Positions 23,905 through 53,351 of a stretch of 64,000 bases of DNA are shown one piece after another; the stretch's first letter is position 1; every line of letters starts with the position of its first letter. The stretch lies in the NCBI GenBank assembly GCA_022072175.1, contig JAJVIE010000003.1, positions 1,134,483 through 1,198,482 on the forward strand, read 5' to 3'. The DNA is from Candidatus Omnitrophota bacterium (GTDB lineage: Bacteria; Omnitrophota; Gorgyraeia; 2-02-FULL-51-18). The notes below the pieces were generated by a model. The model worked only from the letters and a program-made list of their open reading frames with translations, was not told the origin of the DNA and did no database searches. A program made the translations under genes and the position numbers.

Positions 23905-23905
23905 G

Positions 23906-24115
23906 TCAGCCCCCGCAGCAGCCGTCGCGCAGGCGCTGGCGCGGAGGACAATAAGCGTCCGAGTAGGCACAGAACACGCAACACTCGCCGCTCTTGGCGA
24001 TGATCGGCGAGGCGCAGGACGGACAGACGCACTCGACGGGGCTGTAACCCTCCGGCATGGCCTCCCGCGTGGTGTGTCCGCACGCCGGACAGGTCAGCGT
24101 CGCGGTGAGGATCAT
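23906..24115 (-). CDS. Cysteine-rich mini-protein (69 aa, 10 Cys), GDCCVxC-like
   Basis: MILTATLTCPACGH...CVCPSCASP...SGECCVFCAYSDAYC...DGCCGG. ATGA overlap with the BTLCP gene stop. The GECCVFC core resembles the GDCCVxC small-protein family. This is a family resemblance I recalled, not one I verified. Confidence 0.55.
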   Translation of the reverse strand: MILTATLTCPACGHTTREAMPEGYSPVECVCPSCASPIIAKSGECCVFCAYSDAYCPPRQRLRDGCCGG

Positions 24116-36250: not shown

Positions 36251-37634
36251 ACACGACCTCCTCGAGCGCCGGTGAAGGACGCTCCTTGCGGAGATAGGCG
36301 CGCGCCGCTCCCAGGCCGCTCAAGAGGGCCTGATCGCTGTTGTCGTAACGGAACAACCCCGCCCGTCCGGCCAGATGAAGGTTCGGGATGCTCCGCAGAT
36401 AATCCAGCACCGTGTTCAAGGGCTCGCGATAGCCGACGCGGTACACCGGATAGGCGTTGGCCACGCGCACCGCGAAGCCTTCGCGGAGCGCCCGGTGCGG
36501 CGCCAGACCCATCCGATCGAGCTCGACGGCGCTGCGCCGGACCAGCTCGCTCTCCTCCATCGACCAGATCGGGTCCTGCGCGGAGACGAAGTACTCCACT
36601 CCGAGCGTGGTCAATCGCTCGGACGGCACCATGTCGGCGCTCCAGTTGCGGTAGTTCTGCACCCGTCCGAACGGCACCTCTGGGGCGTGCACATAGATCC
36701 AATTGTCGGGAAAGCTCTCGCCGTGCTCGTAGATCAGGTTGACGGTGATGAAGTGCCTGAACGACAGCCGCGCGCAGGCCTCGAGCACCGACGGCGGGGG
36801 CGGCGGATGGATCTTGCCGACGAGCGCCGTGATCGGGATGCTGGAGAAAACCTCCGAGCAGTCGCGCCTCTCGACGCCGCCCCGCGCATCCCCGAGGAGC
36901 ACCGCCGCGACCCGCTCCCCCTCTCTGAGAACGGACAATACCGGCCGGCCGTACTCGAGGAGCGCGCCGTTGCGGCGCGCGCGCTCGGCATAGCGTTCAC
37001 AGAACTGCCCCGGGCCCCTGCGTGGATAGTAGAACTCCTCGCTCAAGGACCTTTCGCCGGCGGCCGGCGGCCAGAGCGCCTTGCGCACGGCTCGCCCGAG
37101 CGAGAGACCGCGCACGCGCTCCTGGGCCCAATCGGACGACAATTGCGAGCACGGGATGCCCCAGACCTTCTCGGTGTAGGTCTTGAAGAACGTTTCGAAG
37201 AGCCTGCGGCCGAACCTCGAGCTCATCCAGCTGTCGAAATCCTCCCCCATCGCCGCGGGCCCTAGACGGGAGGCGGCGTAACTGGCCAGACAGCGGGCCG
37301 CCTCGACCGGGCCGAGCCCCGCCAGAGCGTTGAGCGGTCTCAGCGGGTAGTCGAAGAAGCGGCCCTGGTAGAAGATACGAGAGCGCCTGCGGACCCGCAG
37401 GAGGTCCTCGCCCATCACCTCCGACCAGATCGCGTTGACCTCCGGACTGTCCGAGAGGAAGCGATGGCCGCCGATATCAAAATAACAGTCCTTGTACCGC
37501 ACGGTCCGACACAGACCGCCGGGCTGCAGGTCCCTCTCGATCAGGGACGGAGCCGCTCCGGCGGAGGCCAGGGCATCGGCGCAAGCCAATCCCGCCGGAC
37601 CGGCTCCCAGCACCAACAGCGAGGGCCGGCTCAT
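36243..37634 (-). CDS. UDP-galactopyranose-mutase-like FAD-dependent oxidoreductase
   Basis: Rossmann motif LVLGAGPAGLACA. LFETFFKTYTEKVWG and AGRAGLFRYDNSDQAL resemble Glf motifs. Start is Met65, an ATGA overlap with the upstream stop. Confidence 0.7.
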   Translation of the reverse strand: MSRPSLLVLGAGPAGLACADALASAGAAPSLIERDLQPGGLCRTVRYKDCYFDIGGHRFLSDSPEVNAIWSEVMGEDLLRVRRRSRIFYQGRFFDYPLRPLNALAGLGPVEAARCLASYAASRLGPAAMGEDFDSWMSSRFGRRLFETFFKTYTEKVWGIPCSQLSSDWAQERVRGLSLGRAVRKALWPPAAGERSLSEEFYYPRRGPGQFCERYAERARRNGALLEYGRPVLSVLREGERVAAVLLGDARGGVERRDCSEVFSSIPITALVGKIHPPPPPSVLEACARLSFRHFITVNLIYEHGESFPDNWIYVHAPEVPFGRVQNYRNWSADMVPSERLTTLGVEYFVSAQDPIWSMEESELVRRSAVELDRMGLAPHRALREGFAVRVANAYPVYRVGYREPLNTVLDYLRSIPNLHLAGRAGLFRYDNSDQALLSGLGAARAYLRKERPSPALEEVVYA

Positions 37635-39487
37635 GGGCGGGTCTCCGTCGTGCGGGCGGGTACCGCCGTCCGGCCCGAGCCGAGCATCGACGCTTGCCGC
37701 TCGGCCCGCGCGGCGCCGGCGAGATCCCCGCGGCGACGCAGTGTTTCGGCCAGCAGGCGATACAGCGGGACGCCGGAGGCGCCCGAGCGGATCGCGCCGC
37801 GCAGTTGTTCTTCGGCCTTCCGCCAATCCCCCGAGGCGGCGGCGATGCGGGCGCGGAGGACCGGCAGTTCCGGCAGGCGCGGATGCAGACGCGACAAGTG
37901 TTCGAGCGCCTCGGCGGCCTCGGCGATCCGGCCGAGGGCCAGGCGCATGGAGATCAGATTGAGATGCGTGAGCGCATCACGCGACCCCTCCTCGACGGCC
38001 AGCCTCAGGCGCGCCTCGGCGCGGACCAGGTTGCCGGATGCGTGATCGATCATCGCGCGCAGACGGTGCGCCGCCGGATGTCCGGGCGCGGCCGACTCGA
38101 ACTTCCCGGCCAGATGCACCACTTGAGCGCGGCGGCCGCGCTCGATGCCGATCCGCATCAGGGCCTCATAAGCGTCCGGATCGGCCGGATAGTTGTGGAT
38201 CAGCCGCCGATAGATCCGTATCGCCTCTTCGGTCCGGCCGGTCAACAGATGATCGTCCGCCAGGAGCCACAGCGCTCTTTTGTCCTCAGGATGGTACCGG
38301 AGGGCGGCTTTCGCGTGAGAGGTCCCGTCCTTCCAATCCGGCAGTGCTCTCATCGTCAACGGCAGGCCGAGGATCGCGGAGGCCAGGACGATCGGAGCGG
38401 CCCAGCGCCTCAGCGGCCCCGGGGCCAAAGCCAAACCTGCGGGCACGGCCACGAGCGGCAGGTACAAATGGCGGGTCCCGATCGGAGCCCCGATGAGCGC
38501 GGCCGGCAGGACCAGCAGGACGAACCAGGCCGCCCAGTATCCCCACGCGCGGCGCCGCAGACAACCGATGACCGCAAGGCTCGTAACGAGCGCGGCGAGG
38601 GCCGCGTGCAGAAGGATCCATTCCGGCCGTCCGTACAAGGCCGACTCTTCGAACTCGTAGATGCGGGGTTCCTGAGGCCACAGGGCCAGACGCGCGTAGT
38701 AGCCCAGCATCGACACGGCGCGACAGCCGGACTCCATCGCTCCATCGGATGCCCAACGCTCGAGCGAGACGGGGAATCTCGCCAGAGTGAGCGCTCCGAT
38801 GAGGGTCGCGGGCACCACCAGGAGCGCGAACGTCATGCGGACGTTCCGGGAGGCGGTCCGGTCCCCGATCCCGCAGTGGGTCAGCAGCGCCGACAGCGGT
38901 ACCAGGACCACGGCCGTCACCTTGGATAAGATCGCGGCGGCCAGGCAGAGCGGACCGGCCCATCGTCCCCGGCCGCGGACCATCAGATTGAACCCCGCCA
39001 ACGCGAATGCCGCGCACAGCAGGCTCTTGCGTTCCGAGATCCAGGCCACGGGCTCGACCTGCGCGGGATGCCAGGCGAAGAACAGCGACCCGGCCAGAGC
39101 GGTCGGCGCCGAAACGCCCAGGGCGCGCAGGAGCAGACAGACCAGGGCGGCGTTCAGACAATGCAGCAGCAGGTTGGTCCTGTGGTGGCCGCTGACAGGG
39201 TCGGAGGCCCACAGCAGACGGTCCAGATCGAGGCTGGCCAGTGTCAGCGGCACCTGCAAACCCAGCGGAGAGCTGAACCACGCCGCGACGGCGTCCAATG
39301 GAGCGGTGCCCGGAGGCGTACGGAGAACGACGTAGCGGGCGTCGTCCACACGCACGGTGCCATATCCGGCGACCGGGGCGAAGACGACTGCTGCGGCCAG
39401 CGCCGCGGCGCAAGCCGTCAGCGCCGATGCGTATTTTCCGAGGGGATCGGCTCCGATCACGGCATCAAGTATACGCCCGCCGGACAC
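37631..39487 (-). CDS. TMTC-like GT-C membrane glycosyltransferase with C-terminal TPR domain (paralog 1)
   Basis: TM region with the ...HHRTNLLLHCLNAALV... and HPAQVEPVAWISERK motifs shared with paralogs 2 and 3. C-terminal TPR repeats. Start is ambiguous: GTG at 39487, or ATG at 39547 overlapping the wzm ATG. Confidence 0.65.
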   Translation of the reverse strand: MSGGRILDAVIGADPLGKYASALTACAAALAAAVVFAPVAGYGTVRVDDARYVVLRTPPGTAPLDAVAAWFSSPLGLQVPLTLASLDLDRLLWASDPVSGHHRTNLLLHCLNAALVCLLLRALGVSAPTALAGSLFFAWHPAQVEPVAWISERKSLLCAAFALAGFNLMVRGRGRWAGPLCLAAAILSKVTAVVLVPLSALLTHCGIGDRTASRNVRMTFALLVVPATLIGALTLARFPVSLERWASDGAMESGCRAVSMLGYYARLALWPQEPRIYEFEESALYGRPEWILLHAALAALVTSLAVIGCLRRRAWGYWAAWFVLLVLPAALIGAPIGTRHLYLPLVAVPAGLALAPGPLRRWAAPIVLASAILGLPLTMRALPDWKDGTSHAKAALRYHPEDKRALWLLADDHLLTGRTEEAIRIYRRLIHNYPADPDAYEALMRIGIERGRRAQVVHLAGKFESAAPGHPAAHRLRAMIDHASGNLVRAEARLRLAVEEGSRDALTHLNLISMRLALGRIAEAAEALEHLSRLHPRLPELPVLRARIAAASGDWRKAEEQLRGAIRSGASGVPLYRLLAETLRRRGDLAGAARAERQASMLGSGRTAVPARTTETRP

Positions 39488-39533
39488 CCCCGCAAAAGCG
39501 GAAAAACCCGCCGGGGACGGGCCCGCTTTCAGG

Positions 39534-39539
39534 TATAAT
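39534..39539 (+). promoter_or_regulatory. TATAAT -10 box 6 nt upstream of the wzm ATG (possible leaderless transcript)
   Basis: aggTATAATcggaccATG. Preceded by inverted repeat AAAGCGG-N21-CCGCTTT (39495-39529). Confidence 0.35.
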
Positions 39540-39545
39540 CGGACC

Positions 39546-40322
39546 ATGTCCAACCCTCTTTTCCGAGGTGACGCGGCGCTTTTCCGGGCGCTCTGCCGCA
39601 ATCAGATCATCTCCAGCGACTACCGCAGCGGCCTGGGCGTGCTGTGGAGCTTTCTGGGACCTCTTCTCAAGGCGACCGTCTTCTATCTGATCTTCCATGA
39701 GATCTGGGGACGGTCGGTGACACATTTCGGCCTCAAGATCCTGGTCGGCGTCGTTGCCCTGCAGTTCTTCCATTCGATCGTGCAGTACTCCCAACAGGGG
39801 ATCCGACAGGGGCAGGGCACCGCCCTGCACACGACAGTGCCGTTCGAGGTGCTGCTCTTCCCCACCTACGCCGTGCCCACGCTCAAGCTGATGACGGAAC
39901 TGACGATCTGCTGGCTGGCAGCGGCGTTCTTCGCGGGCGCGGGTATCATGGTCTGGGTCCGGCTGTTGGCCCTCGGTCTTCTTCTGTTGGCTTTTTCGAT
40001 CGGCACCGGCCTCTTGATCGCGTCCCTGCAAACACTGGCCCGGGACATCTCCGAGATCTGGCACCACCTATCGCCTCTCCTGCTGTTCCTGACGCCCGTC
40101 TTCTATTCCCTGGACCGCCTGCCCGAGAACGTCGCGGGGATCGTTCGCGCGCTCAATCCCCTGTGTCCGTTCGTTCTGGCCTTCCAATCGTCGTTGACCG
40201 CCTCCCCGGTGCCCGGGGCCGGCGGGGCCTGGATCGCGAGCATCGCCTGGTCCGCGGGCGCTCTGGCGGCGGGCTACACCGTCTTCCGCGCTCTGGAAAA
40301 AGAGATCGTGGAGAACCTGTGA
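39546..40322 (+). CDS. wzm: ABC-2 type polysaccharide exporter permease
   Basis: 258 aa, 6 TM helices, ABC-2/Wzm/TagG-like. Confidence 0.85.
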   Translation: MSNPLFRGDAALFRALCRNQIISSDYRSGLGVLWSFLGPLLKATVFYLIFHEIWGRSVTHFGLKILVGVVALQFFHSIVQYSQQGIRQGQGTALHTTVPFEVLLFPTYAVPTLKLMTELTICWLAAAFFAGAGIMVWVRLLALGLLLLAFSIGTGLLIASLQTLARDISEIWHHLSPLLLFLTPVFYSLDRLPENVAGIVRALNPLCPFVLAFQSSLTASPVPGAGGAWIASIAWSAGALAAGYTVFRALEKEIVENL

Positions 40323-41101
40323 GCGGCGGAACGGTCCTGAGGCTTGCCGGCGTCTCCAAGAAGTTCCGCGTCTACCGGTCCGAGCGGACGCTCTTCCGCT
40401 ATCTGATGCGCACCCTGAGCGGGGAGCCGATCCACGACACGCTCTGGGCCTTGCGCGGCGTGGACCTGGAACTGCGGCGGGGGGACAAGGTCGCCGTGCT
40501 CGGCCGCAACGGAGCCGGCAAGAGCACCCTTCTGCGTCTGGCGGCGGGTATCTACGGTCCGAGCTCCGGCACGATCGAGCGCTCGGAGCCGGGGCTGGCG
40601 CTGTTCCGCTACGGCGTGGGCATGCAAGCCGACCTGCCGGTCATCGAGAACATCCTGACGACCGGCGCCTTCTACCGGATCCCTCTTGCGCGGCTCCGGG
40701 AGCGCTCCGAGGCGATCCTCCGCTTCTCGGGGCTCGAGCATCTGCGCTATCATCCCGTCAAACGCCTCTCCTCAGGCCAGGTCCAGCGGCTCAACTTCTC
40801 GATCTTCCTGGAAGCGGGTTTTTCCTTCCTGGTCTTCGACGAGAGCACCAGCATGGCGGACATCGAGTTCAGGGCCCGCGCGGCCGTTGCCCTGCGGGAA
40901 CTGCTCCGTTCGGACAAGACGGTCCTCTTGGCGACGCACCAGCTGGATTTCGCGGCGCAGAACTGCGACCGAGCGATCTGGCTCGAGGACGGGCGGGTGG
41001 TCCAGAGCGGCGGCGTGCGGGAAGTGTCCGAGGCTTACGAAGCGTTCTGCGAGAAGCTCGCGCGAGGTCCGGCGGTCAATGCAGGGAAGGCCGCCATTTG
41101 A
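40319..41101 (+). CDS. wzt: ABC polysaccharide exporter ATP-binding protein
   Basis: GTG start overlapping the wzm TGA. Walker A GRNGAGKST, signature LSSGQ, Walker B LVFDE. No C-terminal carbohydrate-binding extension. Confidence 0.85.
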   Translation: MSGGTVLRLAGVSKKFRVYRSERTLFRYLMRTLSGEPIHDTLWALRGVDLELRRGDKVAVLGRNGAGKSTLLRLAAGIYGPSSGTIERSEPGLALFRYGVGMQADLPVIENILTTGAFYRIPLARLRERSEAILRFSGLEHLRYHPVKRLSSGQVQRLNFSIFLEAGFSFLVFDESTSMADIEFRARAAVALRELLRSDKTVLLATHQLDFAAQNCDRAIWLEDGRVVQSGGVREVSEAYEAFCEKLARGPAVNAGKAAI

Positions 41102-41666
41102 GCGAGCGTATGATCGCCTCCTCCTCGCGGACCAGGCGCTCCAGCCGGGCGTCCACCGTACGTTCATCGAAGTATTCGAGCGCCAGGTTCACGAACAGAT
41201 TGCCGTGCCGCGCCTCGGCGACGCAGAACTCCTTGTAGAACGCCTTGAGCTCGGGGTCCTCGAGGGCCCGATAGACGATCTGGAACCGCTCGGCCCCGCG
41301 CGCTTCGACGATGGAGGCGACCAAGAGACGGTCCAGGAACCGCTCCTCGCGGCCGCTCCGGCAGTGGGCCATCAGTCGGCTGACGTAGGGGTCCTTGATG
41401 AAATTGGGTTTGAGCGGCAAACCGCGTTTCTCAAGGATGCGGTGCACCTGCCTGAAATGCGCCAGCTCCTCCAGCGCCAGGTCGATCATCGGGCCGATGA
41501 TCTTCGTCCGGTCCGGACACTTGACCACGAAACCCAGCGCCATGGCCGAGGCCTTGAGCTCGCAGTCGGCGTGGTCGGCCAGGAACTCGTCGAAATGATC
41601 CAGGATCACACGCACCCAGGACGGGTCGGTCTTGCAGGTCAGCTGGACGGTCTTGGTCGGCATCAT
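41076..41666 (-). CDS. miaE: tRNA-(ms2io6A37) hydroxylase
   Basis: Ferritin-like di-iron helices with E..H motifs (DHADCELKA..., EARHGNLF). Start is MMPTKTV, with the exact start +/-3 nt. Confidence 0.75.
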   Translation of the reverse strand: MMPTKTVQLTCKTDPSWVRVILDHFDEFLADHADCELKASAMALGFVVKCPDRTKIIGPMIDLALEELAHFRQVHRILEKRGLPLKPNFIKDPYVSRLMAHCRSGREERFLDRLLVASIVEARGAERFQIVYRALEDPELKAFYKEFCVAEARHGNLFVNLALEYFDERTVDARLERLVREEEAIIRSLKWRPSLH

Positions 41667-41677
41667 CTCCCCCGGGT

Positions 41678-43246
41678 TCAGCGTATTGTATCGGACCCCG
41701 GCCTTCGCGGCCAAGAACCCTCCGGGCCCGGAGCGATCTCCCGCGAACGACCGCCGTCGAGATAGAACACCCGAAGGGGCCTGTCCCCCCGGCGTTCGGG
41801 CCGGAAGAGCAGTTTTCGGGGACCCCGCCCGATCACCGTCCCGAGCTTGGGGAGACCCTGAGCCGGCGGCCATTCGATCAAACGCGATGTCCCCGTCTCA
41901 GGCTCGAGCCGGAGAACCCCTTCGTCCAGCTGGGTGGCCCGAAAATCCCCGGATCGCCGGTGAGCGTAGAGCATCACGCCCTCGACCGCTCCGGAACCCC
42001 GGCCCGCGGCAAGAAGCGCGGCGGACGTCAGTCCGTTGCGTAGAACATATCGGCCCCGATAGCTGTCGGGCACATTGAGCACCACCACATCGGACGAGCG
42101 CGAGGCGGCTGCCACCGGACCCAGGACCGCGTCACGCAAACGCGCTGCCGCCGCCCAATCCGCTTGCGCCGCCCACGTTCGCGTCAACGCGTATCCGATC
42201 AGAGCGGCCGAGACCGCGATCCGGAGCGTCCGGCCCCGGACGGCGTCATGGATCGCCCCCGAGACGCACAGCGCCGCGAACACGGTGGACCAGTAGAGCA
42301 GGCGCTCGTTCTCAGGCGAGCCCGGAGCCGCCCCAAAATTGACGGTCGGCAGGAACGCGACCGTCATGAGGACCGCGCAGGCGGAAGGGATCGTACGCCA
42401 CCACCGGACGACGAGGAGCCACACGCACAACCCCGCCCCGATCAGGATCGGCCGGGCGGCCGCTCCCCATGCGGCGACATCCCCGGTTCCGGACAGACAT
42501 CTGGCGGGCAGGGACGCGACGTTGAAGAACAACCGCCCCGGATCGAAGTTCAGATGAAAACGCTGTCCGTATCCGCCGATCGGATCGCCGAGATAAGCTC
42601 CCCTGGCCAGGATATAAACAACGGTCAGGACAAGGAACGGCCAGGGCAGGGCCCGGCCGAGCGGCCGCTGTCCGCGGCCGCGTGCCAACACATCGTGCGC
42701 GGCCAACACCAGAGGGAAAGCGACCGCCGATTCCTTGGTGAACAAGAAAAGGACGAAGATCGTCGCGCAGACGGTTTCGTAGCGCCGGCGTCCGGTCTCC
42801 CGGTAGACCACGTACGCCCAGTATCCCGCCGTACCCCACAACGCGGCCAACACATCACAGCGCCCGGTGATCCAGCTGACCGCCTCCGAGTGGACCGGCA
42901 GGACCACGAAGAGCGACGCCGAGAGCAGCGCCGCTCCCCTGGAGCCGGGATACAACCGCCGCGCCAGACCGTAGAGCACGGCGGCCACGATCAGGTGGAG
43001 AACGAGGTTGGTGAGATGATGTCCCGGAGCCCACGGACCGCACAGGCGGATGTCCGCGAGCCACGTCGAGGCGGTCAAGGGGCGCACGAACATCGGCCAC
43101 CAGAGCGTCCACACGCTCTCGTCCCGGATCAAAAAGTGGCGGAGGATCAGGTAGTCGTCGGAGAGGAACCCGAAGCTCAGGGACGATCCATAAGCGACCA
43201 GACCGAGAACGACGATCAGGAGCGCCTCTCCGATCCGGCGGAACAT
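41678..43246 (-). CDS. TMTC-like GT-C membrane glycosyltransferase, paralog 2 (no TPR; distinct soluble C-terminal domain)
   Basis: DDYLILRHF...GHHLTNLVLHLIVAAVLY and HSEAVSWI motifs. Start is Met89 of the track ORF, a TGATG junction with the putA stop. Confidence 0.65.
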   Translation of the reverse strand: MFRRIGEALLIVVLGLVAYGSSLSFGFLSDDYLILRHFLIRDESVWTLWWPMFVRPLTASTWLADIRLCGPWAPGHHLTNLVLHLIVAAVLYGLARRLYPGSRGAALLSASLFVVLPVHSEAVSWITGRCDVLAALWGTAGYWAYVVYRETGRRRYETVCATIFVLFLFTKESAVAFPLVLAAHDVLARGRGQRPLGRALPWPFLVLTVVYILARGAYLGDPIGGYGQRFHLNFDPGRLFFNVASLPARCLSGTGDVAAWGAAARPILIGAGLCVWLLVVRWWRTIPSACAVLMTVAFLPTVNFGAAPGSPENERLLYWSTVFAALCVSGAIHDAVRGRTLRIAVSAALIGYALTRTWAAQADWAAAARLRDAVLGPVAAASRSSDVVVLNVPDSYRGRYVLRNGLTSAALLAAGRGSGAVEGVMLYAHRRSGDFRATQLDEGVLRLEPETGTSRLIEWPPAQGLPKLGTVIGRGPRKLLFRPERRGDRPLRVFYLDGGRSREIAPGPEGSWPRRPGSDTIR

Positions 43247-46200: not shown

Positions 46201-46686
46201 CGCGCAGTTCTCGCCGAGCACATCGACGCTCACACCGTAACCACGCTCCCCGAGGCGCCTCCGGACGCGCAGGACATCGTCCAGTGCACAACCCGCGAAG
46301 AACCTCCCCGCCATCACACGCTCGATCAGGGACACGACCGTACGGGCGGCGGCGCGCTCGACGAGACCTCCCAGAAGAGGCGCGCGGCGGAGCGGGTCGA
46401 GCAGGACAGCGGGCGAGCGCAGAAGGGCCGGGATACCCTCGGCGCCGAAATATTGGACCAGATGGTCGCAGACACGCCTGTCATCGGCATGGATGAGCGG
46501 CAACAGGGCCGTGAAACGGAACGCGCGCTCTTTGAGCCCCGGATCGGACGCCGTCAGGCGCAGCAACGCTTCCGAGGGGTCCAGACGGCGTCGGAGCCGC
46601 GTCAGACGCGCGCGCCGGGCCGCCTCGAAGAGCTCGCGGCCGATCCGGCGCGCCGAGGGCTCGAGCTCAGCCCAGGAGGAACTCAA
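43246..46686 (-). CDS. putA: Bifunctional proline dehydrogenase / L-glutamate-gamma-semialdehyde dehydrogenase
   Basis: 1146 aa. PRODH barrel, then an ALDH domain with the FGYAGQKCSACSR catalytic-Cys region. No N-terminal RHH DNA-binding domain. Confidence 0.9.
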   Translation of the reverse strand: MSSSWAELEPSARRIGRELFEAARRARLTRLRRRLDPSEALLRLTASDPGLKERAFRFTALLPLIHADDRRVCDHLVQYFGAEGIPALLRSPAVLLDPLRRAPLLGGLVERAAARTVVSLIERVMAGRFFAGCALDDVLRVRRRLGERGYGVSVDVLGENCADAADAEAYMSEYLRLLEAGVDDVSLKLSAMDPVFDPGAADRTLAAVLPAIGRLLEAADRKGARVTLDMEQYTQKSLTLETVVAAATAHPGTARLSVALQAYVRDETDTDLTRLIHAARDVRRPLGVRLVKGANWDSDTVLAARRGWPNPLYDLKSDTDRSFERLAMRLFKEEHGLYRAFGTHNVRSIAWVLACAEAAGSRPADLEFQFLYGMIPDEIAAAVAARGWPVRYYTPYGQLLPGLAYLVRRLLENSSNHSFLRRLSYRAVDIERQLRPPAPESGATPSREDAVRSVPHDAMERGLREAERLASAAPGVFGEGVRAGIQEARRALGSAGDGVQSLPGELNAILYRSRGDGLVIAGEGADPALLGRVCGVALCAGGPVRLAGSPGVLSSCVGGGSPAIVTDVPAALRSEALAWVCVVGRLADEQALRRMLSERTLERRTPPRWVRAERSVELWPELTAAVSVCENTLQAGFAPEPRSRGGVSGFRSTPELRWHERERRGSFLAEGETLLPRLIDGEPGPIVDGRPVRTGNVVPSEDPCRPDRAVAAVHWAGEEEVRLAVAAARRSLEGWARTPLEERSALLRRAAQLALRDRAGLARLIALEVAKPIEEAVREVDEGVDFFNYYAETVRRLPGSWRPRGVTAVISPWNFPFAIPAGMAAAALVTGNTVVFKPAEQSSVTGWALTRLLLEAGTPGGALHLVPGDGPGAGAVLAAHPDVRTVTFTGSREVGLSLYAEALGASGDPRSVIAEMGGKNAIIVDADADPDEAAASVIQSAFGYAGQKCSACSRVIVLEPIRAAFEERLRRRFNAMVAGSPQEPGVRLSALIDRAARERVLAYIERGRSEGLRPLAWRDIPAERKGAADERGYYAPAVVYADVPASSRLFSEEIFGPVLCLTPARDLDEALRLCSAVPYGLTAGVFSQSPLTLTRARRELEVGNLYLNRGITGALVGRQPFGGLKHSGLGTKAGGPDYLAQFVERG

Positions 46687-49600
46687 GGTCCTCGCGGCCC
46701 AGGGTGCCGCGTGACGTTCCCCCGAGGGCTTGGCCCGCCAGCTCGGCCTTGCGGGATTTCAACTGCAGGATGCGTTCCTCCAGGGTGCCGCGCATGATGA
46801 GGCGGGTCACGAACACATGATTCTTCTGTCCGATGCGGTGAGCCCGGTCGGAGGCCTGGTCCTCGACGGCGGGGTTCCACCACGGGTCCAGATGGAAGAC
46901 ATGATTGGCGCGCGTGAGGTTGAGGCCGACGCCGCCGGTCCTCAGGCTGATCAGGAACACCGGCGGCGAAGCGCCGCTCTGATAGCTCTCGACGAGGGCC
47001 TTGCGGCGGGAAGCGGGCACGGTGCCGTCCATGCGCAGATACTCGATCCGCTCGGCCGACAGCGCCTCTTCGATCTCATCGAGAAAGGACGTGAACTGCG
47101 AGAACACCAGAGCGCTGCCCTCCTCCTCGAGGAGCTCGCGGAGCTTGAGCACCAGGAACTGCGTCTTGGGCGACGGTTCGGCGTGCGCGCGGTCGAACAG
47201 TCTCGGCGAGACGCAGATCTGCCGCAGGCGGGTCAGCGCGGCCAGCGCCTCGAGCGAGGCCTCACCGGCGCTCTTACGCACGAACGCCCGCTTGACCTGG
47301 GACCGCACCGACTCGAGCGTGCGGTCGTACAGCGCCCTCTGGCGCTTGGACATGGGCAGGAAGATCTCCTGTTCGGTCTTGGGCGGCAGTTCACGCGCGG
47401 CCGTGTCCTTGGTGCGCCGGAGCACGAAAGGCCGCGCCCGGTGACGCAGACGCTCGAGACGCTCGGCATCATCGGCGCGCCGGAACGTCTCGTACTCGCC
47501 CAACAACCCCGGCAGGGCGAGGTCCATCACCGAATAGAACTCCCCCAGGTGGTTTTCCAGCGGGGTCCCCGTCAGCGTCAACCGGAACGACGCTCGGAGC
47601 GACCGGGCCGCCGAGGTCCGCTCGGAGCGGATGTTCTTGAGGTACTGAGCTTCGTCAAAAATGAGCGTGTGGTAACGCCCGCGCTTGAGACGTTCGAGCT
47701 GTCGGCGCAGGGTCTCATAGCTGATGATCACCACGTCAGCTCCCGAGGGTAGCGCGCCCGAGGTCCATTCGACGACGCTCAGCGAGGGACAAAAATGCCC
47801 GATCTCCTTTTTCCAATTGAAGATCAAGGTCGGCGGCACGACCAGAAGGTGCGGCAAGCCGGAAACACCGGCGTGGAGCTTGATCTTGCCTTCTTTGAGC
47901 CCCCCGAGGAACGCGATCGCCTGCACGGTCTTGCCCAGACCCATGTCGTCGGCCAAACAGGCCCCCAAGCGGTGTTCGTACAGGAAAGCCAGCCAGTCGT
48001 ATCCGGTCTTCTGATAGTCGCGCAGGAGCCCGCGGAACGACGACGGAGGCTCCTTGGGCTCGATCCGCTCGAAACGCAGCAAACGTTGGACGCGCGCCTC
48101 GTCCTCGGCCGGCAGCGTGATCTCCACGCCGCGCGACCTCAGCCGCACCCAGTCCAGGAGTTCCAGCCGATCGATGCGCACCGGGTCATCGGCCGAGCGG
48201 CGCCGGGACAACGGCGGCATGAGCCCCGCCAGCGCCCGGAGGGTCTCGAGGCTCTTGTCATCGACGAGCATGAGGCGGCCTTCGACCTCGGACAACCCGC
48301 TGTCGGCCAGGATGCGCCGCCACTCCTCCTCGGGCACCGCTCGCCCGCCGGAGACGACCCTTGGCCGCGCCTCGAACCACTCCCCGCCCGCACGGGCCCG
48401 TCCGTCCAGATCGAAGCTCAGCGCCTGACGGCGCACCGGGGCCTCGCCCCACCACAACTCATAACCCTCGGCCGACAGCGCCGCGTACAGACGCCGCAAC
48501 CTCTCGTACAAACCCTCCGAGACCAGCGCCACCGCCGCGCCGCGCGTCCAGTCGCACACATCCCCGCCGAGCGCTTCGGCGGCCAGAACGGCCGACCGGA
48601 TCCGCCTGCGGGGTTCGGCCGTCAACGTGTAGAAGCCCTCACGCGAGGCCCTCAGCCGCTCGACCGGCTCCCCGGCGAAAGCCTTGCGGAAACGCCGGGC
48701 GGCCTCCTCGAGCTCGAAGGCCGCTTCCTCGAGCGGTGTGACACGCAGCGCCTCGCGGCGGAGGCGTTCCTGCGTGTCGGGCCCCTCGAACTCGAGCGCT
48801 TCGAGCAGGTACGCGCGACAGCGCTCTTTGGAGGACTTGCGGGACAACGCCGCGGAGCGGAACTCCAGGTGGGACAGGAACGCCGCGGCCGCTCCCTCCT
48901 GACCGCCTTCGTACGGTTTTCCGTCGAGAGCGCTCTCACAGCGTGCCCAAACCCTGCCATCCGGGCGGCGCCACACGACGATCCGCTGTTCGGGGCGGCG
49001 CGGACCGGCGGTCGAAGCTCCTCCGTCCACTTCGAACATCAGGTCCTTGAGGTAGGCCTCCCGCATCCCCGAGGGGAAGCTCAGGGCCTTCTCGTTGAGA
49101 TACGCGATGGGCAGGCGGCGTTCGCGCTCGCTTTCGTAGTGCCGCGGCGGCTCGACGGTCACACTGCGCGACGGACCCCGTGATCGCGTCGGTCTCGAGG
49201 GGACATAACCGTCCTCGGGGTCATAGCTGTCGCTCTCTTCGGTCTCGTACGCCAGTTCCTTGACCGCGGAGCGGGTACGGGTCTCCGTCGTCGTTTCCGC
49301 GGCGTCCGACAACAGAAGGTCCGCGACCTGCCAGCCGGAACGGTCGATGACGCGACCCAGCCGTCCGGTGGACAGGTCCGCCGCGAACGTCCGGCCGATG
49401 CGGACCGGCGAGACGATCGGCCGCGAGGGATCGCGGACATCGCAGAGCGCGCGGACGACCCCGACCTCACCCGCGCGGCCGTCGAGACGCAATCGCGTCC
49501 GGGCCCGCAGTTCCAGGTCCGGGTCCCAGCGCAGTTCGGTCGATCCGGCGGCCGTCTCCACGACCAGGCGCAACGCCTCTTCAGGAGCGTCGAGATAGTC

Positions 49601-49807
49601 CCGCAGATCGGCTTCCTCGGCGTCCGAGCGCAGTTCCTCGCGCACCAGGGCCCTGAGCCCGACGGGAATGGACAATGAGATGGACGGCAGCGCCTCGCCG
49701 TCCCTGCAGGGCACGAGGTTGATCGCCTCCCCGTCCAGACGGCCCGGTTCCAGGCGCAGTTCCAACCCGGGATCCGTGACCGCGCGCCGGGGAACGGACG
49801 TCGCCAT
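46667..49807 (-). CDS. SNF2-family helicase with long N-terminal bacterial SNF2-associated region
   Basis: C-terminal half: DDMGLGKT (motif I), DEAQ (motif II), and helicase-C ...[23 protein letters not shown]. About 560 aa of unique N-terminus. Confidence 0.85.
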   Translation of the reverse strand: [1046 protein letters not shown]

Positions 49808-49815
49808 ACGCTCCG

Positions 49816-51870
49816 CTAGCTCCTGCGGATGACGCCGTCCAGGCGCTCGGCCAGATCGGCCCGGCCGAGAGCGGTCAGCGCCTCGAGACGGCCTCGCGCG
49901 TCGGCCGGACGGCCGGCGCGCAGATAAGCGATGCCGAGGTTGTAGTGCGAGTCGGGGAAATCCGGATTGGTCTCTACGGCCTTGCGGCCGTACTCGACGG
50001 CGGCCTTCGGATCACCGAGGTCCAGACTGACGATGCACAGGTTGTTGTAAGCGTGGAAGAGCATCGGGTCGGCCTCGACGGCCTTGAGATAGTACTGCCG
50101 GGCGCGCTGTTTGTCGCCGCGCTGGGAGTACACGTTGCCGGCGTTGGAGTACGCGGCCGATACCGACAGTCGGTCTCCGGCCGATTCCCCCAGACGGATC
50201 GCTGTCTCGAACTGCCCGAGCGCCTCGTCCACTCGGCCGCTCTCGAAGTATGCCCCTCCGAGATTGGCGTAGTCCTTGGCGTGGCGCGGGTCGAGCTCGA
50301 CGGCCTTCACCAGGTACGGGATCGCCTCGCCCGGAAGGCGTGCTTCGGCATAGTGGTTGCCGAGCTGTGAATACGGGCGCGGGTCCTCGGGATATTTCTT
50401 CATCGCGTCGGTCCACAGCGACACCTCGTCCTTCCAGACGCGATTGCGCGTATGCGTCGTCACCGCCAGCGCCGTCAGGGCCGCCAGAGCGGAGGCGGCC
50501 AGCGGCCGGAGCGGGAGGCGTCCGTACGCCGGACCTAGCGCGACCGCGACGGCGACCCCGGCCATCGGCAGGTACAGACGATGCTCGAACATCACGTCCG
50601 GCAACGGTACCAGGGATTCCATCGACAGCGTCAGGAAGAACCAGGCGACACCGTATCCGACGGCCGGCGCGCGCCGACGCAGGACCCAGGCCGCCGCCGC
50701 CATCGCGGCCAGGAGCGCCAATGAGAGCGCGGTGCCAAGGTCCGCGGAGGTCGTGATCGGATAGTCGTGCACCACCGACTGTCCGGCGGGCCACACGATC
50801 ATGCGCAGATAAGACCGCAGGACATTGAGCTGGGTGAGATAGTAGTGCGCGCGGGGCATGTTGCGCTCCGACTCCCAGCGCGTGAAATCCTCCAGACGCG
50901 CCAACCCCGAAGCCGGCGCCTCCGCCTCGACCTTGGCGGGCGCGACGAAGAAGATGCCTTCGGACTGCGAACGGTTGAGCAGAAGGATCGGAATGATGAC
51001 CAGACAGGCCAGAAAAGGCGCCAGGGCGCGTGAACGCTCCTTCCAGAACGCGCCCGGCCGGCCGAACCACCAGAGCTCCGTCAATACCAGGGCCGCCGGC
51101 AACGTGAGGCTGATCTCCTTGCAGAACATCGCGGCGACCGTCAGCGTCCAGGCGGCGATGGTCCATCGCCGGTCCTGCCTCAGCCGGGCTTCGACGTACG
51201 TCCAGACCGCTCCGACGTAGCACACCGTGGCCATCACCGCCGCGCGCTGCCAGATGTAGTTGACCGCCTGGGTCTGCAGGGGATGTGCGGCGAACAGCGC
51301 GCCCGCTGCCAGCGGGGCGACCCAGAGCAGTCGCCCGCTCGAGCGGTCGGCTAGGGGACGGGCCGCCGGGGTCCGCATCAGCGCGGACGCCAACAGCGCC
51401 ACCAGGGCCGACGCGATCGCGTGCAGCGCCACGTTGACCGCGTGATACCCGGTCGTCTCGAGACCTCCCAACCGGTAGTTGAGCGCCAGTGTCAGGCCCG
51501 TCAGGAAACGCGCGTTGAACTGATCGAAAAGCCGCTTGAGATCACCCGCTTCCTTGATGACGGGATTCTGGACGATCGTATAGGTGTCGTCGAAATGAAA
51601 GGACCCGTCCAGCGCGTTGGCGTACACGAGCACGGCGATCGCGGCGGCGGACAGCGCGGCCGCCCAGGGTAAGACCGGACCTACGGCCCGTGAGGGCTCG
51701 GTGCCGGGAGGCGCGATCGAAGTTACGGACGGCTCCGGTGTAGGATCCTTGGGTGCCTGGCGCAGGACGGAGCGAACGTTCTTTTCACGGAGACCGGTGC
51801 GCTCGGCGATCTCACGGACCGTGAGACGCCCGGCGTTCTCGAGGATGAACTTCCTGGTCTCCGGGTGCAT
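49816..51870 (-). CDS. TMTC-like GT-C membrane glycosyltransferase, paralog 3, with N-terminal HTH-like segment and C-terminal TPR domain
   Basis: N-terminal 40 aa RLTVREIAERTGLREKNVRSVL is HTH-like. TM core: DGSFHFDDTYTIVQNP...FLTGLTLALNYRLGGLETTGYHAVNVALHA... and HPLQTQAVNYIWQR. At least 5 TPR repeats at the C-terminus. Confidence 0.7.
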   Translation of the reverse strand: MHPETRKFILENAGRLTVREIAERTGLREKNVRSVLRQAPKDPTPEPSVTSIAPPGTEPSRAVGPVLPWAAALSAAAIAVLVYANALDGSFHFDDTYTIVQNPVIKEAGDLKRLFDQFNARFLTGLTLALNYRLGGLETTGYHAVNVALHAIASALVALLASALMRTPAARPLADRSSGRLLWVAPLAAGALFAAHPLQTQAVNYIWQRAAVMATVCYVGAVWTYVEARLRQDRRWTIAAWTLTVAAMFCKEISLTLPAALVLTELWWFGRPGAFWKERSRALAPFLACLVIIPILLLNRSQSEGIFFVAPAKVEAEAPASGLARLEDFTRWESERNMPRAHYYLTQLNVLRSYLRMIVWPAGQSVVHDYPITTSADLGTALSLALLAAMAAAAWVLRRRAPAVGYGVAWFFLTLSMESLVPLPDVMFEHRLYLPMAGVAVAVALGPAYGRLPLRPLAASALAALTALAVTTHTRNRVWKDEVSLWTDAMKKYPEDPRPYSQLGNHYAEARLPGEAIPYLVKAVELDPRHAKDYANLGGAYFESGRVDEALGQFETAIRLGESAGDRLSVSAAYSNAGNVYSQRGDKQRARQYYLKAVEADPMLFHAYNNLCIVSLDLGDPKAAVEYGRKAVETNPDFPDSHYNLGIAYLRAGRPADARGRLEALTALGRADLAERLDGVIRRS

Positions 51871-51964
51871 GCAGTGATTATAAGCGATGCGGTCGTGCCC
51901 TCACAAGGCCGATGGGCTCAAGGCCCTTGCGCCCGGAGGCGGGGCGGTTTAGACTGCACTCCAG

Positions 51965-53305
51965 ATGGCCGCTCAACAGCCCCTCACCGCGTCACTCTTG
52001 CGCCCCGGACCGCTCTGGGCCGTGCTGGTGGCCGCCGTTCTCACCGCTCAGACCTTCTGGCTCCAGCACGGCAAGGGCGACGAGCTCTTCTACGTGGCGA
52101 CGGCCATGAAGCTCGAAGCCTCCGGCTGGAGCGGCTACTCCCTGCGCGGCGTGGACGATCGCCGAGTCCAGGGCATCTATCGCGAATTCACCCCCGCGGC
52201 CTCCGGAGCCGAGGGAACACTGCTGAGCGCTCTCAAGAAGAGCGGGGCGGTCTACTATGACGCTCCGCTCCTGACACAGCCCCCGCTCTTGAGCCTGCTC
52301 ATCCAGGGCTCTCATCGACTGCTGGACGGCCGCTCGGCGTACCGCATCCTGCCTTTTCCTCTGCCCTTCCCCCGGGATCTCCGCCCCTCCGAGGCCAATA
52401 CCGTCCGCTGGCGTGTCGTGCGCACGCAGTTGTACGCGGCGCTGTGGCCCTTCCTTTTCGGACTGCTTTCGGTCGGAGCCGTGTACGCGCTGACCCTGGA
52501 GCTGAGCGATGACCGCCGGGCGGCCACTTGGGCGTCCCTGCTGATGGCCGCCGCGCCCGAGCATCTGCTGGCCTCCTCCAAGATCTGGGCCGACACCGCC
52601 GTGACGGTCTTGGTGACCCTATCCGTTTGGGCCTGGATCCGCGCTCGAAGATCCGACAGCTCCCCGATGGCCCTGGCGGCCGGAGCGCTGTGCGGTCTTG
52701 CGGCCCTGGCCAAGACCACGGGCTACCTCCCTCTCTTGGTCGTCGCGGCGATGTACCTGCGCGGCCTGGTCCTGAGACAGCGCGAACGTTCGCTCGTCCC
52801 TTTCGCGGTCGGCACCGCGGTCCTTTCGGCCCCGTGGTATCTGTATGTGGCCGCGGTGTACGGCGACCCTCTGTACGTGAACATCCTCTCCCAGCCCGTA
52901 CCCGCGGGTGAGTGGTTCGGAGAGCTGGCCTCCCGCCCTCTCGGCTACTATCTCGTCAACCTGCCGTATCAGACACCGCTGATCCTGGCCGCCGCGGCCG
53001 CTCCGGTGGCGTTGTGGACGGCTCGCACGCCCGGCGCTCGGTCGTTGCTGGCGGCGTGGGTGCTCCTACCGTTGACGGTGCTCTACGCGACCAAGGAAAT
53101 GCGCTACCTGCTCCCGCTCTACCCTCCGCTGCTAGCCCTGGCCGGAGCGGGACTGGAGAGGGCACGGAGATATCTGGACGGGATCCGGCCTCCAACGGGA
53201 TCGCTCGTGACGGCCGCCGCGCTGGCGGCGTCGTTGTTGTGGTCGGCGTCCATCGGCCTGAGCCATGCGGCCGCCGGGTCCGGGCTCATCAAAGCCCCCT
53301 TCTGA
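51965..53305 (+). CDS. GT39/ArnT-like (PMT_2) GT-C membrane glycosyltransferase
   Basis: Polytopic protein with an early DE motif (GDELFYVATAMK) in the first loop. About 12 TM helices. Confidence 0.7.
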   Translation: MAAQQPLTASLLRPGPLWAVLVAAVLTAQTFWLQHGKGDELFYVATAMKLEASGWSGYSLRGVDDRRVQGIYREFTPAASGAEGTLLSALKKSGAVYYDAPLLTQPPLLSLLIQGSHRLLDGRSAYRILPFPLPFPRDLRPSEANTVRWRVVRTQLYAALWPFLFGLLSVGAVYALTLELSDDRRAATWASLLMAAAPEHLLASSKIWADTAVTVLVTLSVWAWIRARRSDSSPMALAAGALCGLAALAKTTGYLPLLVVAAMYLRGLVLRQRERSLVPFAVGTAVLSAPWYLYVAAVYGDPLYVNILSQPVPAGEWFGELASRPLGYYLVNLPYQTPLILAAAAAPVALWTARTPGARSLLAAWVLLPLTVLYATKEMRYLLPLYPPLLALAGAGLERARRYLDGIRPPTGSLVTAAALAASLLWSASIGLSHAAAGSGLIKAPF

Positions 53306-53351
53306 TCCCGGCTCTGGACGCCGGACCTCGCCACGGTTACAATACGCCCCC

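What the first reader, a model, noticed from the sequence alone, without database searches (positions are those of the whole stretch)
37631..53305. Three paralogous TMTC-like GT-C glycosyltransferases (two with TPR arrays) plus a GT39/ArnT-like enzyme: candidate bacterial protein O-glycosylation machinery
The three minus-strand proteins at 37631..39487, 41678..43246 and 49816..51870 share a polytopic core. The core has an N-terminal acidic DD/DE loop motif and the conserved ..P..xYH.xN..LH.. and HxxxxEAVxWI motifs that I recognise from eukaryotic TMTC1-4 O-mannosyltransferases (DUF1736). Two of the three end in multi-repeat TPR domains, as TMTCs do. The third carries a different soluble C-terminal domain. 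A fourth GT-C enzyme, GT39/PMT_2-like with a DE loop motif, sits at 51965..53305. All four flank a glycan-assembly and export locus (GT2s, sulfotransferase, Wzm/Wzt). TPR-bearing GT-C enzymes are suited to recognising protein acceptors. A cluster of three in one locus suggests a multi-enzyme protein O-glycosylation or envelope-protein decoration system. I am not aware of one characterised in bacteria.
Basis: partly seen in the sequence, partly recalled or inferred. Interest (0 to 1): 0.75.

Follow-up and report, generated by a model that had tools for sequence, protein, structure and literature searches.

The report
Three bacterial TMTC-family membrane glycosyltransferases
Three genes in this Omnitrophota genome piece really are bacterial relatives of the animal TMTC protein O-mannosyltransferases, but they are ordinary members of a huge, uncharacterised bacterial family and sit in three separate gene contexts, not in one dedicated protein-glycosylation system.

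Summary
Proteins A (37631-39547, -), B (41678-43246, -) and C (49816-51870, -) are paralogues with an 11-helix GT-C membrane core. A and C end in TPR arrays and B ends in a small beta-rich domain. D (51965-53305, +) is a separate PMT_2-type GT-C.

The TMTC call is correct. A profile of 117 bacterial cores, with no TPR, matches human and fly TMTC membrane domains over nearly their full length (138-162 bits). ArnT and Pmt1 controls score 12 and -10 bits. A profile of six animal TMTCs hits C, B and A but not D. The best solved-structure match for both models is yeast Pmt4.

The "one multi-enzyme system" reading is not supported:
- Only A sits in a conserved glycan module (FAD oxidoreductase, GT2, Wzm/Wzt, further GT2s, sulfotransferase).
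- B follows putA.
- C is paired with D only in one close relative.

The family is very large (about 123,000 clusters at 50% identity). It often occurs in tandem arrays of up to seven copies. It frequently lies next to a polyprenyl-phosphate-sugar synthase, and in some lineages it lies in type IV pilus loci.

These are most likely periplasmic glycosyltransferases that use a lipid-phosphate-sugar donor. The acceptors are unproven. I rate this a new member of a known kind, of moderate interest.

The parts
37631..39547 (-). Protein A (638 aa): divergent TMTC-family GT-C core followed by a periplasmic TPR array (about 37682-38320). It is the first gene of a conserved A / FAD-oxidoreductase / GT2 operon.
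   Evidence: The core profile hits A at E 8e-22. The animal TMTC HMM scores 37.0 bits. TPR Pfam hits cover residues 428-633 of the 656-aa ORF. The start site rests on the sequence and on P0156. The subfamily-specific substitutions KE->K[VTA], RP->VP and E->T/S/D in the ERxxY motif are conserved in P0157 and P0158.
41678..43246 (-). Protein B (522 aa): TMTC-family GT-C core (about 42101-43246) plus a non-TPR beta-rich C-terminal domain (about 41732-42100). The domain carries the subfamily motif NVPDxxRGxYVxRNGL.
49816..51870 (-). Protein C (684 aa) in three parts: an N-terminal cytoplasmic HTH-like module (51751-51870), a canonical bacterial TMTC-type 11-helix core (about 50431-51675), and about six periplasmic TPRs (49822-50427).
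51965..53305 (+). Protein D (446 aa): PMT_2/ArnT-like GT-C with no soluble domain, transcribed divergently from C. It is not a TMTC-family member.
   Evidence: Pfam hits: PMT 1.3e-8, PMT_2 7.4e-7, Glyco_transf_22 7.5e-6. The NCBIfam ArnT model scores only 21.5 bits against a cutoff of 567. The core profile gives E 0.13 and the TMTC HMM 5.9 bits. The divergent C-D pair is kept in the 62%-identical relative L001, but D-like neighbours occur in 0 of 79 other loci.
36243..37826 (-). FAD/NAD(P)-binding amine-oxidase-fold oxidoreductase (PRK07208 family, weakly similar to UDP-galactopyranose mutase). It lies immediately downstream of A. The real start is probably near 37635.
   Evidence: Pfam Amino_oxidase and NAD_binding_8. 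NCBIfam NF005548 scores 510 bits against a cutoff of 389. It is 76% and 47% identical to the genes following the A homologues in L007 and L008.
35219..36250 (-). GT2 (343 aa, GT2/GT21-like) with a C-terminal hydrophobic segment. It is the third gene of the conserved A module.
   Evidence: Pfam hits are. It is 59% and 41% identical to the GT2 genes at the same position in L007 and L008. The hydrophobic segment spans residues 274-292.
30606..35222 (-). Further glycan-assembly genes: GT2 (34299-35222), double-GT2 (32221-34302), Stf0-like sulfotransferase (about 31505-32221) and GT2 (30606 to about 31510).
   Evidence: Pfam and NCBIfam hits are. The sulfotransferase matches PF09037 at E 1.7e-5, 24.9 bits, above the cutoff of 22. 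GC3 shows that the 655-aa ORF 30606-32573 is really two genes.
39357..41101 (+). Wzm-like ABC-2 permease and Wzt-like ATPase, transcribed divergently from A. The real starts are later than the ORF starts.
   Evidence: Pfam ABC2_membrane and ABC_tran. NCBIfam galactan/teichoic-acid exporter models match below their cutoffs. The pair is 65% and 64% identical to the divergent pair next to the A homologue in L007.

Best explanation
A, B and C are three independent bacterial members of the TMTC branch (CAZy GT105 type) of the GT-C_A glycosyltransferases.

Architecture. Each has an 11-helix inner-membrane core. Its active site faces the periplasm and is built from the DD loop after TM1, the RPL...LN loop, the HPxxT(E/Q)AV loop, the K(E) motif and the E(x)RxY loop. 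Each also has a C-terminal periplasmic domain that selects the acceptor: a TPR array in A and C, and a beta-rich domain in B.

Mechanism. By homology, each takes a single sugar from a flipped polyprenyl-monophosphate-sugar donor, made by a Dpm1/GtrB/PpgS-like GT2. It transfers the sugar to an extracytoplasmic acceptor.
- For C-type and B-type enzymes the acceptor is most likely Ser/Thr of secreted or envelope proteins, as for TMTC, PMT and TfpW.
- A belongs to a distinct subfamily with an altered catalytic signature. It works inside a conserved module (FAD oxidoreductase, membrane GT2, Wzm/Wzt, more GT2s, sulfotransferase). There it probably adds a sugar to an ABC-exported, possibly sulfated, glycan, or couples that glycan to its final acceptor.
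- D is an unrelated PMT_2/ArnT-type GT-C.

What is shown and what is inferred. Shown: homology, fold, motif conservation, domain architecture and gene contexts. Inferred: donor type, periplasmic orientation, acceptor identity and catalytic activity.
For: Homology to TMTC:
- The reverse TMTC HMM hits C (91 bits), B (64.7) and A (37.0).
- The TMTC motifs M1, M2, M4 and M7 defined in PMC7801869 map onto the family invariants.
- Bridging relatives P0128, P0168 and P0206 carry PF08409 hits.

Fold:
- The AF2 models are confident: C has pLDDT 92.2 and B 85.7.

Donor:
- The commonest conserved neighbour in 79 related loci is a GT2 that resembles polyprenyl-phosphate-sugar synthases (best models PpgS, AglJ and Dol-P-hexose transferase).
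- By BLAST clustering it occurs in 24 of 79 loci. By phmmer at 1e-10 it occurs in 18 loci, and in 11 cases it lies within about 500 bp of the GT-C gene.

Protein acceptors in some lineages:
- The Anaeromyxobacter dehalogenans homologue P0076 lies inside the type IV pilus locus, between pilA, an ABC-2 gene and the minor pilins.
- Prepilin genes lie directly downstream of tandem GT-C pairs in L076 and L077.
- TfpW is an experimentally shown GT-C plus TPR pilin O-glycosyltransferase.

Independence of the three genes:
- The A / oxidoreductase / GT2 triad is conserved down to 29% identity.
- B and C contexts are not conserved.
Against: - No biochemical or genetic data exist for any bacterial member of this family.
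- Pfam's DUF1736 model does not hit A, B or C.
- No polyprenyl-phosphate-sugar synthase or flippase is recognisable in the 64-kb window.
- No pilin or other obvious client is nearby.
- A lacks three residues that are invariant in the C-type alignment and that are proposed to bind the metal or phosphate in TMTCs: the R of RPL, the E of KE, and the E of ERxxY. A may therefore use another chemistry or be inactive.
- TPR domains also occur on polysaccharide-export and assembly proteins, so a TPR array does not prove a protein acceptor.
- Prepilin linkage is seen in only 5 of 79 loci.
Confidence: 0.6

Rival explanations
1. The enzymes modify glycans or lipids, not proteins. They would act like GtrC, ArnT, Emb/Aft or the newer three-component pentofuranose systems, adding side-chain sugars from Und-P-sugar to an exported polysaccharide, LPS-like lipid or peptidoglycan-linked polymer. 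The TPR or beta domain would dock them to envelope assembly machinery.
For: - A sits in a conserved operon with an FAD oxidoreductase and a GT2. It lies next to Wzm/Wzt, further GT2s and a sulfotransferase.
- Three-component systems that combine GT-C enzymes with FAD-dependent oxidoreductases are described for polysaccharide modification (PMC11194591).
- The TPR regions of A and C give weak, far-below-cutoff matches to models of TPR-containing polysaccharide-export proteins (PgaA, BcsC).
Against: - At sequence level the family is far closer to the protein-specific TMTCs than to ArnT (138-162 bits against 12 bits).
- The best structural match is Pmt4.
- Some members are embedded in pilin operons.
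- B and C have no glycan genes around them.
Confidence: 0.28
2. One reading: A, B, C and D together with the GT2, sulfotransferase and Wzm/Wzt genes form one coordinated multi-enzyme protein O-glycosylation or envelope-decoration system.
For: - All the genes lie within about 23 kb.
- C, the helicase gene, putA, B and miaE are co-directional with overlapping or near-overlapping junctions, so they may be co-transcribed.
- The C-D divergent pair is kept in one close relative.
Against: - putA, an SNF2 helicase gene, miaE and tex are interspersed and functionally unrelated.
- Only A's neighbourhood is conserved in distant relatives.
- D-like genes are absent from 79 related loci.
- Homologues of B and C lie in unrelated contexts elsewhere.
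- The family is so abundant, and so often multi-copy, that three copies in 14 kb is unremarkable.
Confidence: 0.07
3. One or more of the paralogues, especially A, is catalytically inactive. It would act as a TPR scaffold or regulator in the envelope.
For: A and its relatives P0157 and P0158 lack the Glu of the KE motif, the Arg of RPL and the Glu of the ERxxY motif. All three residues are invariant in the C-type alignment.
Against: - The substitutions are themselves conserved across 29-47% identity.
- DD, the His residues, K, and R..LY are retained.
- The gene stays in an operon with enzymes.
- This pattern fits a change of specificity better than decay.
Confidence: 0.05

Closest known systems
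Metazoan TMTC1-4 (CAZy GT105; Dol-P-Man:protein O-mannosyltransferases for cadherins and protocadherins)
   Same: - The membrane domains are homologous over their whole length.
- Motifs are shared: the DD loop, RPL..L(T/S)F.LN, G(Y/F)HxxNxxxH, HPxxT(E/Q)AV, KE(x)xxT and E(x)RxY.
- Both have about 11 TM helices followed by a C-terminal TPR array on the non-cytoplasmic side.
- Both occur as several paralogues per genome.
   Different: - The host is bacterial, so the donor would be an undecaprenyl-type phosphate sugar of unknown identity and the clients are unknown.
- Pfam DUF1736 is not detected in A, B or C.
- C-type enzymes have QTQAV and EHRLY variants.
- The A-type lacks the KE glutamate.
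- B replaces the TPR array with a beta-rich domain.
- C carries an extra cytoplasmic HTH-like module.
Fungal and actinobacterial PMT/POMT (GT39)
   Same: - Both have an acidic first-loop motif and use a lipid-phosphate-sugar donor.
- D matches the PMT and PMT_2 Pfam models.
   Different: - A, B and C show no detectable sequence similarity to Pmt1 (-10.4 bits).
- None of the four has a MIR domain.
- D has no soluble domain at all.
Pseudomonas aeruginosa TfpW (pilin D-arabinofuranosyl transferase)
   Same: Both are bacterial inner-membrane GT-C enzymes of similar size (TfpW is 646 aa) with 11 predicted TM helices, a DDx motif in periplasmic loop 1 and a periplasmic C-terminal TPR domain. TfpW glycosylates a protein from a polyprenyl-phosphate sugar. 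Some family members here lie in pilin operons.
   Different: - No pilin or D-Araf biosynthesis genes lie near A, B or C.
- The sequence relationship to TfpW could not be tested because no TfpW sequence was available.
ArnT and the GtrABC-type three-component glycosylation systems
   Different: - The acceptors of those systems are lipid A or O-antigen.
- They have no TPR domain.
- Sequence similarity is negligible (11.9 bits).

Membership tests
TMTC / CAZy GT105 | Significant sequence similarity of the whole membrane domain to TMTC1-4, and stronger than to other GT-C families | tested here: met
   [not shown]
TMTC / CAZy GT105 | M1: DD motif in the first extracytoplasmic loop | tested here: met
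   A has D68-D69, B has D30-D31 and C has D94-D95. The motif is invariant or nearly so in the family alignments.
TMTC / CAZy GT105 | M2 (S-H-K-S-Y-R-P-L..LTFRLN) and M4 (K-E-(T/Q)-x-x-T) | tested here: inconclusive
   - B has VRPLTA and TKESAV.
- C has ARFLTGLTLALNY and CKEISLT.
- A has QVPLTL (no Arg) and SKVTAV (no Glu), and its subfamily conserves these differences.
- The SHKS part of M2 is absent from all three.
TMTC / CAZy GT105 | Pfam PF08409 (TMTC_DUF1736) hit in the TM7-TM8 loop | tested here: not met
   There is no hit for the A, B or C cores at E <= 10, and none in 14 diverse cores. Related bacterial proteins do carry it: P0128 at 26.9 bits against a cutoff of 27, and also P0168 and P0206. 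The equivalent segment YLxTQ..YLRLLxxPxGQxxDxDYP does align to the TMTC DUF1736 region in the HMM alignment.
TMTC / CAZy GT105 | M7: E-R-x-x-Y loop between TM9 and TM10 | tested here: met
   B has NERLLY, which is exact. C has FEHRLY, with the Arg shifted by one position. A has TRHLY, keeping Arg and Tyr but lacking Glu.
TMTC / CAZy GT105 | About 11 TM helices in a GT-C_A fold, with a C-terminal TPR array on the lumenal or periplasmic side | tested here: met
   [not shown]
TMTC / CAZy GT105 | Activity: transfer of mannose from Dol-P-Man to Ser/Thr of specific protein domains | not testable with these tools
   This needs biochemistry or glycoproteomics.
PMT / GT39 (for D) | PMT or PMT_2 domain above the Pfam threshold, an acidic D-E first loop, and a lumenal MIR domain | tested here: inconclusive
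   PMT scores 35.2 bits (cutoff 22.7) and PMT_2 scores 29.9 bits (cutoff 26.1), and D39-E40 is present. There is no MIR or any other soluble domain. PDB sequence search finds nothing. D is therefore a member of the PMT_2 superfamily but not a demonstrable GT39 PMT.
ArnT / GT83 (for D) | Match to the ArnT equivalog model | tested here: not met
   NF009784 scores 21.5 bits against a cutoff of 567.
TfpW-type pilin glycosyltransferase | Gene adjacent to pilA, plus the GT-C and TPR architecture | tested here: not met
   The architecture is met. However, no prepilin gene was found in the annotated genes of the window. Sequence similarity to TfpW was not testable.
Wzy_C-type O-oligosaccharyltransferase or O-antigen ligase (PglL/WaaL) | Wzy_C / O-antigen ligase domain | tested here: not met
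   No such Pfam or NCBIfam hit was found for A, B, C or D.

The most novel reading that the evidence does not exclude
The bacterial TMTC-like proteins would be a widespread, so far unrecognised machinery for periplasmic protein O-glycosylation. There are about 10^5 clusters at 50% identity, often in tandem arrays of two to seven paralogues. Each paralogue's TPR or other C-terminal domain would pick a different client class, with type IV pilins as one class. They would be the prokaryotic ancestors of the animal cadherin O-mannosylation pathway. Within this scheme the A subfamily, with its conserved loss of the KE glutamate, would be a new variant that couples an ABC-exported, sulfated glycan to its acceptor.
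Probability: 0.2. Interest if true: 0.75.

Novelty: new member of a known kind. Interest (0 to 1): 0.4.

Why it matters
TMTCs are known only as animal enzymes that O-mannosylate cadherins. Their mechanism is still modelled rather than solved, and no bacterial relative has a known function.

The family is abundant in bacteria. It is frequently next to a lipid-phosphate-sugar synthase, it is sometimes inside pilin operons, and it has diversified into subfamilies with different C-terminal domains and catalytic signatures. These facts give concrete, testable entry points in culturable Anaeromyxobacter, Geotalea and Geobacter relatives. They address two questions: what these roughly 10^5 orphan membrane glycosyltransferases do, and where the eukaryotic pathway came from.

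For this particular window the result is mainly a corrected annotation. The public records call these proteins 'Ycf3', 'beta-barrel assembly-enhancing protease' and 'hypothetical protein'.

Tried and rejected
- Direct Pfam and NCBIfam scans of the cores gave no DUF1736 hit and no family at all for B. Two of 14 diverse cores hit PMT_2 only.
- Sequence search of the PDB found only TPR proteins with full-length C. It found nothing with the core-only profile at E <= 10 and nothing for D.
- I tested whether the C-D pairing is general. It is not: 0 of 79 loci have a D-like neighbour.
- I searched the window for a polyprenyl-phosphate-sugar synthase like the one next to relatives. Only weak N-terminal GT2 similarity appeared (E about 1e-6).
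- I checked B's relatives for a conserved context and found none.
- I first failed to find the sulfotransferase, because ORF 30606-32573 is a frame artefact that merges two genes. This was resolved.
- Comparison with TfpW was not possible because no sequence was accessible.
- Literature searches found no paper on a characterised bacterial TMTC homologue. The library does not cover subscription journals, so this absence is weak evidence.
Full report
**Source and gene map**

The window is about 66% G+C. It comes from a Candidatus Omnitrophica MAG: proteins A, B and C are 100% identical to P0156, P0121 and P0001 on a 1.59-Mb contig. The public names for them are 'Beta-barrel assembly-enhancing protease', 'hypothetical protein' and 'Photosystem I assembly protein Ycf3'.

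ORF listing, GC3 analysis and family scans give this map:

| Coordinates | Strand | Gene |
|---|---|---|
| 30606 to ~31510 | - | GT2 |
| ~31505-32221 | - | Stf0-like sulfotransferase |
| 32221-34302 | - | double GT2 |
| 34299-35222 | - | GT2 |
| 35219-36250 | - | GT2/GT21-like, one C-terminal hydrophobic segment |
| 36243 to ~37635 | - | FAD amine-oxidase-fold oxidoreductase, PRK07208 family |
| 37631-39547 | - | A |
| within 39357-41101 | + | Wzm and Wzt |
| 41076 to ~41660 | - | MiaE |
| 41678-43246 | - | B |
| 43246-46686 | - | PutA |
| 46667-49807 | - | SNF2 helicase |
| 49816-51870 | - | C |
| 51965-53305 | + | D |
| 53265-55634 | + | Tex |

The rest of the window is housekeeping.

**Checking the observation**

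The three proteins are homologous. Pairwise BLASTP gives E values of 4e-9 to 1e-11. I built an HMM from the membrane cores of 117 homologues of C, with the TPR regions removed. It hits A at 8e-22 across nearly the whole profile and B at 5.5e-34 over its N-terminal half. It does not hit D. Apart from an 11-bit fragmentary match to ORF 22333-24093 (E 0.0026), no other ORF in the window matches.

A and C carry TPR arrays. B has none. Its AF2 model (pLDDT 85.7) shows a beta-rich domain at residues 386-504. The few full-length relatives share the motif NVPDxxRGxYVxRNGL in that domain.

D passes the Pfam thresholds for PMT and PMT_2 and has D39-E40. The only coordinate correction is A's start, which is 39547 and not 39487.

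**Is it TMTC-like?**

Standard scans say nothing. Pfam finds no DUF1736 in A, B or C even at E <= 10. A PDB sequence search with a core-only profile is empty.

I therefore took the N-terminal domains of human TMTC1-4 and Drosophila TMTC1 and TMTC4 from the published alignment in the supplement of PMC7801869. The ArnT and Pmt1 rows of the same alignment served as controls.

- The bacterial core HMM matches all six TMTCs over profile positions 6-401 of 414. Scores are 138-162 bits, with E 1e-35 to 1e-42 even when scaled to 1.84 billion sequences.
- ArnT scores 11.9 bits and Pmt1 scores -10.4 bits.
- In the reverse direction, an HMM of only those six animal sequences hits C (91 bits), B (64.7) and A (37.0), but not D (5.9).

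The TMTC motifs defined in that paper map onto the bacterial invariants:

| TMTC motif | Bacterial counterpart |
|---|---|
| DD | FxFDD |
| YRPL..LTFRLN | RPLxxLTFALNY |
| HPIHTEAV..GRAD | HPLQTQAVTYIxQR (C-type) or HP/LPxHSEAVSWITGRCD (B-type) |
| KE(T/Q)xxT | TKExAxTLP |
| ERxxY | EHRLY (C-type) or ERLLY (B-type) |

Relatives that bridge to B and A (P0128, P0168, P0206) carry borderline PF08409 hits.

So A, B and C belong to the TMTC (GT105-type) branch of the GT-C_A enzymes. D is a different, PMT_2/ArnT-like GT-C.

**How unusual is it?**

It is not unusual. The core-only profile finds 122,768 representatives of 50%-identity clusters at E <= 1e-3, and 51,494 at E <= 1e-30.

A single peptide pattern finds at least 597 loci in one-genome-per-species bacteria. 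The phyla include Omnitrophota, Planctomycetota, Nitrospirota, Desulfobacterota, Bacteroidota, Patescibacteria, KSB1 and others.

In the 79 loci I retrieved, 27 hold two or more paralogues within 10 kb. Tandem arrays reach six (L031, L070) and seven (L075) copies. Three copies in 14 kb is therefore typical. JGI already labels some members 'protein O-mannosyl-transferase'.

**Context and mechanism**

*Donor.* The most frequent conserved neighbour in those loci is a small GT2. Its best models are polyprenyl-phospho-GalNAc synthase PpgS, AglJ and Dol-P-hexose transferase. It occurs in 24 of 79 loci by BLAST clustering. By phmmer at 1e-10 it occurs in 18 loci, and in 11 cases it lies within about 500 bp of the GT-C gene. 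This is the signature of systems that use a lipid-monophosphate-sugar donor, as TMTC and PMT do. No such synthase is recognisable in this window.

*Acceptor.*
- In Anaeromyxobacter dehalogenans 2CP-1 the homologue lies inside the type IV pilus locus, translationally coupled to an ABC-2 gene and followed by minor pilins.
- In two Deltaproteobacteria MAGs, prepilin genes sit directly downstream of tandem GT-C pairs.
- P. aeruginosa TfpW, a GT-C plus TPR enzyme encoded next to pilA, is shown to O-glycosylate pilin.
- Only 5 of 79 loci show prepilin linkage, so pilins can be clients of only a subset.

*Are the three window genes one system?* The evidence says no.
- A's neighbourhood is conserved. 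In L007 (47% identity) and L008 (29% identity) the A homologue is again followed by the same oxidoreductase (76% and 47% identical) and the same GT2 (59% and 41% identical). Wzm/Wzt lie divergently in L007, and a sulfotransferase and a GT2 lie divergently in L008.
- The A subfamily also shares a distinct catalytic signature: VP for RP, K[VTA] for KE, and [TSD]RHLY. This points to altered chemistry within a glycan pathway rather than decay.
- B follows putA, with the stop and start overlapping as TGATG. It precedes miaE. A 28%-identical relative has a different context.
- C is divergent from D, and that pairing survives only in a 62%-identical relative. D-like genes are absent from all 79 other loci.
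- The run C / helicase / putA / B / miaE looks like the tight gene packing of a small genome, not a functional unit.

**Verdict**

The idea of a single protein O-glycosylation system built from all four enzymes is not supported. Protein as the acceptor remains an inference, and for A a glycan-pathway role is more likely.

I found no paper describing a characterised bacterial TMTC homologue. TMTC-like genes are described only as widespread in eukaryotes. The function of this very large bacterial family is therefore open. This locus, however, is an ordinary representative of it: a new member of a known kind, of moderate interest.

Noticed in passing
window 51751-51870 (-), residues 1-40 of C: C begins with a confidently modelled three-helix, HTH-like cytoplasmic module (pLDDT 90-96) ahead of TM1. 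It gives weak Pfam hits to many HTH families (Sigma70_r4_2 at E 4.6e-4). The same module, M.PE..K[FY]ILENAG.LS..EIA..LGLKE..V..FL, heads 12 of the 361 collected relatives. A DNA-binding-type fold fused to a membrane glycosyltransferase is unexplained.
   Followed up: partly
[not shown]
   Followed up: partly
window 30606-32573 (-): The 655-aa ORF is an artefact of high G+C. Its first ~350 residues are Arg/Pro/Gly-rich out-of-frame translation. The real genes are a GT2 (30606 to ~31510) and, in another frame, a Stf0-like sulfotransferase (~31505-32221; GC3 0.86; PF09037 at 24.9 bits).
   Followed up: yes
window 41076-51870 (-): Five functionally unrelated genes (C, SNF2 helicase, PutA, B, MiaE) form one co-directional run with junctions of -20 to +14 nt. 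One junction is a TGATG stop/start overlap between putA and B. This suggests long mixed transcription units in this small genome.
   Followed up: partly
L075 3195-18995; L031 5537-16893; L070 5012-16357: Tandem arrays of seven (a KSB1 bacterium) and six (Omnitrophota and an uncultured bacterium) full-length TMTC-like paralogues on one strand.
   Followed up: no
P0225 (1270 aa): The best hit of the core profile is a 1270-aa protein with two matched stretches, the better one at residues 629-1031. It may be a fusion of two TMTC-like cores in one polypeptide.
   Followed up: no
L004 4688-11938 (Anaeromyxobacter dehalogenans 2CP-1, CP001359.1): A TMTC-like gene overlaps the preceding ABC-2 permease gene by 4 nt. 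It lies between pilA and the minor pilin genes, next to the pilD and pilR/S homologues. The organism is culturable, which makes this a good test case for pilin glycosylation.
   Followed up: partly
window 59559-61601 (-) and 16203-17390 (-): There are two further TPR proteins with no GT-C core. One is fused to a SpoIID domain (680 aa). The other is a 395-aa protein made only of TPRs. TPR proteins are abundant in this genome.
   Followed up: no
window 9107-10789 (-) and 11518-13059 (-): One gene encodes a fusion of a CDP-alcohol phosphatidyltransferase with a lysyl-PG-synthase-type TM domain. Another encodes a CdaA-type diadenylate cyclase.
   Followed up: no
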